From assembly GCF_045037415.1 (NCBI RefSeq), contig NZ_CP173438.1: 64,000 nucleotides of DNA, one strand, 5' to 3'. Shown here piece by piece: positions 33,279 to 33,620 of this stretch. The notes below the pieces were generated by a model that did not search any database, was not told the origin of the DNA, and saw nothing but the letters and a program-made list of their open reading frames with translations. Made by a program: the position numbers and the translations under genes. This DNA is from Escherichia coli (GTDB lineage: Bacteria; Pseudomonadota; Gammaproteobacteria; Enterobacterales; Enterobacteriaceae). Numbering within the stretch: the first letter of the stretch is position 1; each line of letters opens with the position of its first letter.

Positions 33279-33620
33279 ACAGCCTTCCCCTGAATAAATT
33301 AACCGCCACTTGCCATTCCGTACAGAAGTCGGATATCCTTCGCCCGAAAAGCATGAAACACATTTCTGCCATGCTAAAGAGAAACCCCGGTATCAGCAGA
33401 TACCGGGGTTTTCTTTCATGCCCACCGATAATCCTGTTGGTTAAAACCGGTAATGGCATAAAAATTCTGAATATCTTCACATTTTCACACACTGACTGTG
33501 GCGCTTATAATTTCGCTGCGTTAGTGTTTTTTTGCCCGAGTAACAAAAACAACTCCTTAACATTGATCTTCATTTGTCTGTCCCCGCAGCTCCGCGATCA
33601 CTGCGGGATTTTTTTATGTT

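What the first reader, a model, noticed from the sequence alone, without database searches (positions are those of the whole stretch)
33279..33620. Unusually long I-J intergenic region with plus-strand promoter-like and terminator-like elements: candidate antisense small RNA
In lambda I and J are nearly contiguous; here 340 bp of non-coding DNA separates them. On the strand opposite to late transcription there is a promoter-like element (TTCACA, 16 nt, TATAAT at 33484-33511), a perfect hairpin CCCCGGTATC-agcag-GATACCGGGG plus T-run (33385-33415), and a second hairpin CCCCGCAG...CTGCGGG followed by T7 (33582-33615) about 70-100 nt downstream of the putative start. This fits a short terminated transcript or the remnant of an inserted moron.
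Basis: seen in the sequence. Interest (0 to 1): 0.4.

Follow-up and report, generated by a model that had tools for sequence, protein, structure and literature searches.

The report
Known prophage small RNA PasB

Summary
The I-J spacer is 342 bp (33279-33620), against 60 bp in lambda. It carries a near-consensus plus-strand promoter (TTCACA-16-TATAAT, 33484-33511), an intrinsic terminator (33583-33615) and a strong upstream hairpin (33385-33408).

The promoter-to-terminator unit is the known sRNA PasB. PasB is 83 nt and lies in the I-J spacer of prophage PP6 in EPEC E2348/69 (Pearl Mizrahi 2021). There it was confirmed by Northern blot, depends on Hfq and has 37 RIL-seq partners. The window copy (33533-33615) matches 82 of 83 nt, and the published probe matches exactly. 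The promoter is identical.

Diverged homologues (72-80% identity) sit at the same junction in about a third of complete E. coli genomes and in many Stx phages. They include EcOnc22/23/24 of O157 Sakai (Tree 2014), which I link to PasB through their Northern probe.

The promoter architecture is fixed across 62 variants and places the transcription start at G33518, giving about 98 nt.

The first hairpin lies upstream of the promoter and is not part of the RNA. It is a terminator-like hairpin that faces the late strand in every allele, and lambda has a counterpart.

Verdict: already known, and a correct de novo call. A trans-acting role through Hfq is the supported mechanism. A cis-antisense role is untested.

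The parts
33621..34301 (-). Tail assembly gene I. Its stop codon is at 33621-33623. RefSeq annotations of the identical sequence use a shorter 193-aa start.
   Evidence: ORF list. Annotation of identical DNA in JJ1887 and of the homologue in E2348/69.
29806..33278 (-). Host-specificity gene J. It is split here into 489-aa and 708-aa ORFs by a 1-nt deletion near 31877, compared with the intact 1157-aa gpJ of JJ1887.
33279..33457 (.). J-proximal half of the spacer ('type A' allele). It is unrelated in sequence to the 76-86 nt that occupy this position in E2348/69, Sakai and most Stx phages.
   Evidence: Pairwise alignment. BLAST finds only copies at 95% identity or more, in 1445 of 5426 genomes. 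Allele comparison.
33376..33417 (.). Strong GC hairpin: core 33385-33408, a 10-bp stem with loop AGCA. It is flanked by an A-rich run and a T-rich run, so it looks like an intrinsic terminator on both strands. It lies upstream of the PasB promoter and is not part of PasB.
   Evidence: Fold z-scores of -7.4 (+) and -6.1 (-). The other allele carries an unrelated hairpin with a compensatory change and a U tail on the late strand only. Lambda has a counterpart.
33458..33483 (+). Nearly invariant box upstream of the -35 hexamer. It contains TCTGA-N6-TCACA (33466-33481). It is a candidate regulator site; the regulator is unknown.
   Evidence: Alignments: 55 of 62 variants keep the two half-sites while the 6-nt spacer varies. 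There is a single occurrence in the window against 0.14 expected.
33484..33511 (+). PasB promoter: -35 TTCACA (33484-89), a 16-nt spacer, -10 TATAAT (33506-11).
   Evidence: Scan. Identical in E2348/69. The 16-nt spacer occurs in 50 of the 52 variants that could be parsed, and a -10 hexamer of the form NANNNT in all 52.
33518..33615 (+). Predicted primary PasB transcript, about 98 nt. It starts at the G of the invariant GCGTTA box, 7 nt after the -10 hexamer.
   Evidence: There is a fixed 6-nt gap between the -10 hexamer and the GCGTTA box in all 52 parsed variants. This is an inference; the 5' end has not been mapped.
33533..33615 (+). PasB as annotated in the literature (83 nt). It matches E2348/69 at 82 of 83 positions, with C27A at 33559.
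   Evidence: Table S6 of PMC8550237. Coordinates mapped. Comparison.
33542..33553 (+). AACAAAAACAAC, four A-A-N triplets inside the variable region. Other variants differ in sequence here but stay A-rich (for example AAGAAUAAU and AAUAAAAACAAAAC). It is a possible Hfq distal-face motif.
   Evidence: Read directly. The role in Hfq binding is inferred.
33565..33571 (+). GATCTTC. ATCTT is invariant in the 11- and 13-sequence alignments, which were found by similarity alone, and lies in a single-stranded stretch just upstream of the terminator. It is the probable seed.
   Evidence: Alignments. The IMG/VR copies do not test this, because the search pattern required ATCTT. Zhu et al. 2026 propose the seed at this position.
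33583..33615 (+). Rho-independent terminator and Hfq-binding 3' end: a 7-bp stem CCCGCAG/CTGCGGG, an 11-nt loop, an A, then U7.
   Evidence: In the similarity-found alignments the stem is invariant in the 12 of 13 rows that align cleanly, and the loop varies. The reverse complement of the PasB Northern probe matches 33588-33610 exactly.

Best explanation
The right-hand 160 bp of the I-J spacer is a self-contained small-RNA gene, PasB. It belongs to the same family as EcOnc22/23/24 of O157 Sakai. The gene sits in antisense orientation between the stop codon of tail gene I and a hairpin that precedes J.

In a lysogen the late operon is silent, and a sigma-70 promoter (33484-33511) drives a transcript of about 83-98 nt that ends at the intrinsic terminator (33583-33615). 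The RNA is largely unstructured apart from the terminator. It binds Hfq through its 3' U-tail, and perhaps through an A-rich internal stretch. It pairs with host and prophage mRNAs in trans, through the conserved AUCUUC-containing single-stranded stretch.

The upstream hairpin (33385-33408) is a separate element. It is a terminator-like hairpin that faces the late strand in every allele, and lambda has one too. The most likely origin of PasB is therefore an insertion between I and this older hairpin.

- **Shown in homologues by others:** transcription, size, dependence on Hfq, and many RNA partners.
- **Shown here:** identity, context, and a conserved architecture.
- **Inferred:** the transcription start at G33518, the seed, the role of the A-rich stretch, expression in this particular strain, and any function of the hairpin.
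For: **Identity**
- PasB is defined as NC_011601 1466343->1466261 (minus strand), 83 nt, with probe AATCCCGCAGTGATCGCGGAGCT.
- That interval lies between tail assembly gene I and gpJ of E2348/69.
- The window matches it at 82 of 83 positions, and the reverse complement of the probe matches 33588-33610 exactly.
- The promoter and everything from about 33458 into gene I are identical in the two strains.

**Experiments in EPEC**
- A Northern blot confirmed the size and the dependence on Hfq.
- The log2 fold change in the hfq deletion is -6.8 under activating and -2.4 under nonactivating conditions. Base mean expression is 482 and 1082, against 4.8 for I and 15 for J.
- PasB has 37 RIL-seq partners, 30 of them in coding regions or 5' UTRs.

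**Experiments in EHEC**
- EcOnc22/23/24 bind Hfq in CRAC, run at about 85 nt on a Northern blot and are destabilised without hfq.
- Of the 33-nt probe, the reverse complement matches the plus-strand RNA body in the I-J spacers of Sp15, Sp14 and Sp11 over 23 contiguous nt exactly, and over the remaining 10 nt with two single-base gaps and one mismatch.

**Conservation**
- The module is present in 1795 of 5426 complete E. coli genomes, at 4389 places, down to 72% identity. Every diverged copy I fetched that still has annotated flanks lies between I and J.
- 62 unique variants share one layout: fixed promoter spacing, GCGTTA box, U-run, variable A-rich stretch, ATCTT, terminator stem. For the copies found by pattern search, ATCTT and the stem were part of the query.

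**Structure**
- Only the terminator helix is common to the family, as is typical of Hfq-dependent sRNAs.
Against: - No expression data exist for this strain or for the window-type spacer allele.
- The 5' end is unresolved: 33518 by promoter geometry, 33533 by RNA-seq coverage in EPEC.
- No PasB target has been validated by mutation, and no phenotype is known, so 'trans-acting regulator' rests on RIL-seq chimeras.
- The terminator stem never varies, so there is no covariation support for the structure.
- Rfam 15 has no family for it, so the identification rests on sequence comparison with published coordinates and probes.
Confidence: 0.9

Rival explanations
1. PasB acts mainly in cis. It would pair with the complementary stretch of the polycistronic late mRNA just after gene I, or its convergent transcription would interfere with late transcription. 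Either way it would set the amount of J made relative to I, or silence read-through into J in lysogens.
For: The RNA is perfectly complementary to about 98 nt of the late transcript between I and J. Its position at this one junction is fixed across the family. A late-strand terminator-like hairpin follows it in every allele. Together these could form a block to non-antiterminated transcription.
Against: It overlaps no coding sequence or ribosome-binding site. Its 3' end is 5 nt from the stop codon of I, and its predicted 5' end is about 240 nt from the J start. It is expressed when I and J are nearly silent, it has 37 trans partners on Hfq, and it needs Hfq for stability. Lambda assembles tails without it. 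Nobody has tested a cis effect.
Confidence: 0.12
2. The spacer is non-functional filler or a decayed moron, and its promoter-like and terminator-like elements are chance matches.
For: Consensus scans alone are only weakly enriched: 3 promoter-like sites against 0.8 expected and 2 terminator-like sites against 1.4 expected. The folding z-scores of the RNA are unremarkable, at -0.8 and -0.9.
Against: The promoter spacing, the -10 A2/T6 positions, the GCGTTA box, ATCTT and the terminator stem are kept while the sequence between them diverges to about 72% identity. RNAs from two branches of the family have been detected by Northern blot and on Hfq.
Confidence: 0.02
3. The spacer encodes a small protein. 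Candidates are the 128-aa plus-strand ORF 33254..33640, the 77-aa minus-strand ORF 33259..33492, and the short ORFs that some phage annotations call here.
For: An open frame spans the whole spacer on the + strand. Three phage records annotate a 'hypothetical protein' in this spacer.
Against: None of the three ORFs hits a PHROG family. Family members differ by insertions and deletions that are not multiples of three, and the left half is replaced outright in other alleles. The ORFs run through two terminator hairpins.
Confidence: 0.02
4. Hairpin 33385-33408 is the functional core of the finding. It would be a bidirectional terminator or insulator, or an RNA-stabilising element of the late mRNA, independent of PasB.
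For: It is very stable on both strands, with z = -7.4 and -6.1. An unrelated hairpin occupies the same position in the other allele; it shows a compensatory change (CACC/GGTG to CATC/GATG) and a U-rich tail on the late strand, and the scan calls it a terminator. The 60-nt spacer of lambda also holds a GC hairpin followed by UUUUGUCAUUU.
Against: This adds to the PasB explanation rather than replacing it. No function is known. Q-modified polymerase would read through it. The scan did not call the lambda hairpin a terminator. One IMG/VR copy of the window-type allele lacks the hairpin.
Confidence: 0.5

Closest known systems
PasB sRNA of EPEC E2348/69 prophage PP6 (Pearl Mizrahi et al. 2021, PMC8550237; Zhu, Shabalina and Storz 2026 preprint)
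   Same: It matches at 82 of 83 nt. The promoter, terminator and Northern-probe target are identical. It has the same position and orientation between tail genes I and J.
   Different: There is one substitution, C27A at 33559, at the position where the preprint says PasB and PasB-2 differ. The J-proximal half of the spacer is a different, longer allele: 179 nt against 77 nt. The 100%-identical matches listed are mostly human isolates, including JJ1887. Expression in this strain has not been tested.
EcOnc22/23/24 of E. coli O157:H7 Sakai prophages Sp15, Sp14 and Sp11 (Tree et al. 2014, PMC4104026)
   Same: Same junction and orientation, same promoter geometry, GCGTTA/GCATTA start box, U-run, AAUCUUC stretch and CCCGCAG/CTGCGGG terminator. 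They are Hfq-bound, about 85 nt, and destabilised without hfq.
   Different: The matching Stx-phage copies are about 72-75% identical to the window. The middle of the RNA differs, and the -35 hexamer (TCCGGC) and -10 hexamer (AATAAT) are weaker. Neither Pas paper I read names EcOnc22 as a PasB homologue. The link made here rests on the probe sequence and the alignment.
Anti-sRNAs AgvB and AsxR (Rfam RF02702 and RF02703)
   Same: They are prophage-encoded and Hfq-bound, with a conserved 3' part and a variable, A-rich 5' part, and they are expressed from lysogens.
   Different: They are 51-60 nt and lie downstream of PR' at the moron site, not between I and J. There is no Rfam match to them anywhere in the window. 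No sponge activity has been shown for PasB.
Lambda I-J junction
   Same: Same flanking genes. A GC hairpin with a U-rich tail on the late strand sits just upstream of J.
   Different: The spacer is 60 nt, with no promoter, RNA or terminator cassette.
Phage morons (Juhala et al. 2000 concept)
   Same: It has its own promoter and terminator, sits between genes that are adjacent in a relative, and is expressed from the prophage. A sodC gene occupies the same spacer in some prophages.
   Different: The cargo is a non-coding RNA, and it lies on the strand opposite to the late operon.

Membership tests
PasB sRNA | Sequence of the 83-nt RNA defined in E2348/69 (NC_011601 1466343->1466261) | tested here: met
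   82 of 83 identical. The only difference is C27A at window 33559.
PasB sRNA | Target of the published Northern probe AATCCCGCAGTGATCGCGGAGCT | tested here: met
   The reverse complement is found exactly at 33588-33610 on the + strand.
PasB sRNA | Location in a lambdoid prophage between tail assembly gene I and host-specificity gene J, opposite to the late genes | tested here: met
   The same holds for every diverged homologue fetched that still has annotated flanks.
PasB sRNA | [quoted passage not shown] | tested here: met
   7-bp stem plus U7.
PasB sRNA | Own promoter | tested here: met
   11 of 12 consensus match, identical to E2348/69, with geometry conserved across the family. This is in silico only.
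PasB sRNA | Transcribed, about 83 nt, and stabilised by Hfq in the host | not testable with these tools
   Shown for E2348/69. No data exist for this strain.
EcOnc22/23/24 (broader PasB family) | Homology to the Sakai I-J spacer RNAs detected by probe GGGAGAGAACGATGAAGATTAACTGATGAGTTA | tested here: met
   They align over the full length with shared promoter geometry, start box, AUCUUC and terminator. The window is a different subtype, and the probe itself matches the window only partly.
AgvB/AsxR anti-sRNAs | Match to Rfam RF02702 or RF02703, and location downstream of PR' | tested here: not met
   No Rfam match in the spacer even at E-values up to 10, and none in the window at gathering score. 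Location as described.
Cis-antisense RNA (lambda OOP type) | Overlaps and pairs with the coding region or ribosome-binding site of the gene it controls | tested here: not met
   PasB ends 5 nt before the stop codon of I and starts about 240 nt from the J start. It is complementary only to the untranslated spacer of the late mRNA.
Moron | Autonomous promoter-gene-terminator unit between genes that are adjacent in related phages | tested here: met
   The lambda spacer is 60 nt and has no cassette. The cassette is delimited.
CRP-activated class II promoter | TGTGA-N6-TCACA site centred at -41.5 | tested here: inconclusive
   TCTGA-N6-TCACA at 33466-33481 has conserved half-sites and a variable spacer. 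It is centred at -44.5 from the predicted start, and its single occurrence is not significant by itself.

The most novel reading that the evidence does not exclude
The I-J junction of this phage group could be a conserved three-part control cassette: a late-strand terminator hairpin, an activator-dependent promoter with an invariant upstream box, and a PasB/EcOnc22-family RNA. Under this reading, the RNA would act on the phage's own late tail mRNA or on superinfecting relatives that carry the complementary junction, in addition to its trans targets. The variable A-rich middle would diversify target or sponge specificity between prophages, as the 5' ends of AgvB and AsxR do.
Probability: 0.12. 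Interest if true: 0.45.

Novelty: already known. Interest (0 to 1): 0.15.

Why it matters
The result shows that reading raw sequence can recover a genuine, experimentally validated prophage sRNA from promoter and terminator geometry alone.

For the biology, the gain is modest and is mostly curation:
- PasB (EPEC, 2021) and EcOnc22/23/24 (EHEC, 2014) appear to be one family, fixed at the I-J junction of lambdoid prophages. It is present in about a third of complete E. coli genomes, including the strains whose junction is 100% identical to the window (JJ1887 and an O25b:H4-ST131 isolate among them).
- The family shares a rigid promoter layout and an invariant upstream box.
- The family has no Rfam model, so genome annotation misses it.
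- Its targets, its regulator and any effect on the phage itself remain untested.

Tried and rejected
- **AgvB/anti-sRNA lead.** The C/A-rich stretch AACAAAAACAAC looked like a GcvB-target mimic. I rejected this: AgvB and AsxR lie downstream of PR', and Rfam finds neither here.
- **Rfam.** No family reaches threshold in the spacer. The sub-threshold matches are generic terminator look-alikes.
- **Covariation.** RNAalifold on 13 diverse members finds only the terminator helix, which does not vary where it aligns, so there is no structural covariation for or against.
- **Protein coding.** Three spacer ORFs have no PHROG match.
- **CRP site.** The half-site pattern is conserved, but the site is centred at -44.5, and one hit in 64 kb is not significant. 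I kept it only as a lead.
- **EcOnc22-24 coordinates.** Read on NC_002695.2, the Table S2 peaks fall inside the right three spacers but about 125 nt toward J from the RNA. I attribute this to a coordinate difference between genome versions, which I could not verify. The probe sequence settles the identity.
- **Taxonomic range.** A scan of one genome per species gave 55 hits. Only 6 passed a check for the GCGTTA start box plus U-run. Two are from E. albertii and three are short contigs binned to unrelated taxa, probably misassigned. The sixth, a Treponema MAG contig, passed the check by chance and shares nothing else with the family. The remaining hits are chance terminators.
- **PasB RIL-seq targets.** I could not extract the list of target names from the large supplementary table within the look-up cap.

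Full report
**Observation.** The window carries a lambdoid prophage with its late genes on the minus strand. Tail assembly gene I is 33621..34301 (-), and J starts at 33278 (-). That leaves a 342-nt spacer, against 60 nt in lambda.
- A plus-strand promoter TTCACA-16 nt-TATAAT at 33484-33511, matching 11 of 12 consensus positions.
- A 10-bp perfect hairpin at 33385-33408 with a 4-nt loop and a T-rich tail, at -26 kcal/mol and z = -7.4.
- A terminator at 33583-33607 followed by T7, ending at 33615.

The consensus counts alone are only weakly above the shuffled expectation, so the case has to rest on comparison with other sequences.

**What it is.** Rfam 15 has nothing for this spacer. The literature does. 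Pearl Mizrahi et al. 2021 defined PasB in EPEC E2348/69 as an 83-nt RNA at NC_011601 1466343->1466261 in prophage PP6, detected with probe AATCCCGCAGTGATCGCGGAGCT. That interval lies between the tail assembly gene and gpJ, on the opposite strand.
- The window is identical to E2348/69 from about 33458 through the promoter, the RNA and the terminator and into gene I, apart from a few substitutions.
- The 83-nt RNA maps to 33533-33615 with one difference, C27A at 33559. The reverse complement of the probe is found exactly at 33588-33610.
- Position 27 is where the 2026 Zhu, Shabalina and Storz preprint says PasB and its variant PasB-2 differ. That preprint also counts ST131 among the main PasB-carrying lineages.
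- In EPEC the RNA was confirmed by Northern blot and is higher in overnight static LB than in DMEM.
- It falls 100-fold and 5-fold in the hfq deletion under the two conditions. It is expressed at 482-1082 normalised counts while I and J sit at 5 and 15.
- It has 37 RIL-seq partners, 30 of them in coding regions or 5' UTRs.

**A wider family.** The promoter-plus-RNA module (33475-33618) occurs in 1795 of 5426 complete E. coli genomes, at 4389 places, with a large class at 72-80% identity. It also occurs in 128 phage records, mostly Stx phages.
- Every diverged copy I fetched that still has annotated flanks lies between I and J on the opposite strand.
- In O157 Sakai the same RNA sits in the I-J spacers of Sp15, Sp14 and Sp11.
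- Tree et al. 2014 listed Hfq-CRAC peaks EcOnc22/23/24 in exactly these three prophages. They run at about 85 nt on a Northern blot and are destabilised without hfq.
- Of the 33-nt reverse complement of their shared probe, 23 contiguous nt match the plus-strand RNA body in all three spacers exactly, and the remaining 10 nt match with two single-base gaps and one mismatch.
- So the family has been seen experimentally since 2014. Neither Pas paper names this homology.
- A pattern scan of one genome per species found genuine members only in E. albertii, plus three short contigs that are probably misbinned. This agrees with the reported restriction to Escherichia and Shigella.

**Anatomy.** The analysis used 144 copies, 62 unique 175-mers and 49 distinct RNA sequences. 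The IMG/VR and species-representative copies were collected with a pattern that required ATCTT, the stem arms and the T-run. For those three elements, only the copies found by similarity count as evidence of conservation. The layout is:
- A nearly invariant upstream box containing T(C/G)TGA-N6-T(C/T)ACA, kept in 55 of 62 variants.
- A variable -35 hexamer (TTCACA, TTCTGT, TCCGGC and others).
- A 16-nt spacer in 50 of the 52 variants that could be parsed.
- A -10 hexamer that always keeps A2 and T6 (TATAAT, TATCAT, AATAAT, CATAAT or GATAAT).
- Exactly 6 nt, then a GCGTTA box kept, with single substitutions in a few variants, across the family.
- A U-run, then a variable A-rich stretch (AACAAAAACAAC in the window).
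- (A/G)ATCTTC, with ATCTT invariant in the similarity-found alignments.
- The CCCGCAG/CTGCGGG stem with a variable loop, then a T-run.

The fixed 6-nt gap puts the transcription start at G33518, giving about 98 nt. The published 5' end at 33533 was read from RNA-seq coverage. Which of the two is the mature end is unresolved.

Folding shows little structure beyond the terminator. RNAalifold finds only that helix, with no covariation because it does not vary. This is the usual picture for an Hfq-dependent sRNA with a single-stranded seed. Zhu et al. place the seed where I find the invariant ATCTT.

The upstream box resembles CRP half-sites. PasB is high under the condition where Spot 42 is low. 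But the box is centred at -44.5 rather than -41.5, and a single hit in 64 kb is not significant. The regulator is therefore open.

**The first hairpin.** It lies about 75 nt upstream of the -35 hexamer, in the J-proximal half of the spacer. That half is a separate allele:
- The window type is 179 nt and is found only at 95% identity or more, in 1445 genomes.
- It is unrelated to the 76-86-nt type of E2348/69, Sakai and most Stx phages.
- Both types nonetheless hold a GC-rich hairpin immediately upstream of the PasB box, in about 104 of 115 copies.
- The short type has a compensatory change (GGCACC/GGTGCC to GGCATC/GATGCC) and a U-rich tail on the late strand only. The scan calls it a minus-strand terminator in Sakai.
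- The window hairpin has U-rich tails on both strands.
- The 60-nt spacer of lambda also contains CCGCC-TGCG-GGCGG followed by TTTTGTCATTT on the late strand, although the scan did not call it a terminator.

The simplest history is that a late-strand hairpin upstream of J is old, and that the PasB cassette was inserted between the stop codon of I and that hairpin. What the hairpin does is not known. It could block non-antiterminated transcription into J, or stabilise the late mRNA.

**Mechanism.** The supported model is an autonomous, lysogen-expressed moron whose cargo is an Hfq-dependent trans-acting sRNA. The cis-antisense reading is not excluded, because the RNA is complementary to the late mRNA spacer. 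But the RNA overlaps no coding sequence or ribosome-binding site, and it is made when the late operon is silent. It also has many trans partners. I give the cis model about 0.12. Chance and protein-coding explanations are rejected.

**Verdict.** The increments from this work are:
- the PasB-EcOnc22/23/24 link;
- the conserved promoter geometry, which implies a start at G33518;
- the invariant upstream box;
- the two-allele late-strand hairpin with a lambda counterpart.

Noticed in passing
window 29806-33278 (-), deletion near 31877: Host-specificity gene J is split into 489-aa and 708-aa ORFs by a 1-nt deletion (CTCGGGT-TCAGGGG), compared with the intact 1157-aa gpJ of JJ1887. Either the prophage cannot make a functional tail tip, or this is a sequencing error. 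J is also annotated in two pieces in Sakai Sp15; only one piece of the Sp14 J lay in the stretch fetched.
   Followed up: partly
L011 (E. coli C7, NZ_CP010240 4117779-4118875); also L145 and L161: In some prophages a sodC (Cu/Zn superoxide dismutase) gene sits at this junction on the same strand as the PasB-like RNA. Its terminator and about 55 nt replace the PasB promoter, leaving a promoterless PasB-like body. The junction therefore seems to be a recurrent insertion site for morons.
   Followed up: partly
L009 (E. coli strain 4) 385-415 and 604-636; also two matches each in L038 and L092: Two tandem PasB-like copies, each with its own promoter-like region and terminator, lie about 220 nt apart and are diverged from each other.
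   Followed up: no
L021 (lambda NC_001416 15445-15504): The short I-J spacer of lambda holds a GC hairpin (AAACCGCC-TGCG-GGCGGTTT) followed by TGTCATTT on the late strand, just upstream of the J ribosome-binding site. I know of no assigned function for it.
   Followed up: partly
L001 (JJ1887 NZ_CP014316) locus 8786-12501: In JJ1887 the tape-measure gene of the same prophage is truncated by an ISEcp1-blaCTX-M-15 insertion, and an ISEc12 element follows a truncated lom. In the window the tape-measure ORF (35985..39227) is intact.
   Followed up: no
window 55751-55940 (-), 61412-61587 (-), 18793-18978 (+), 56640-56889 (-), 11736-11829 (+): There are other Rfam matches at gathering score: STnc100, a sok antitoxin RNA (a hok/sok-type module), isrK next to a C4 antisense RNA, two tRNAs, and the chromosomal trp leader. 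The window holds several other prophage-borne small RNAs.
   Followed up: no
window 33254-33640 (+): A 128-aa open frame with a GTG start spans the whole spacer, including both hairpins. It has no PHROG match and is not conserved in other alleles, so it is almost certainly spurious. It is the kind of ORF that some phage records annotate here as 'hypothetical protein'.
   Followed up: yes
one IMG/VR copy of the window-type spacer (locus not recorded): One copy lacks the 33385-33408 hairpin. About 46 nt are missing between two TTTCT repeats (CATTTCT...GGGGTTTTCT). This suggests that the hairpin segment can be lost or gained through short direct repeats.
   Followed up: no
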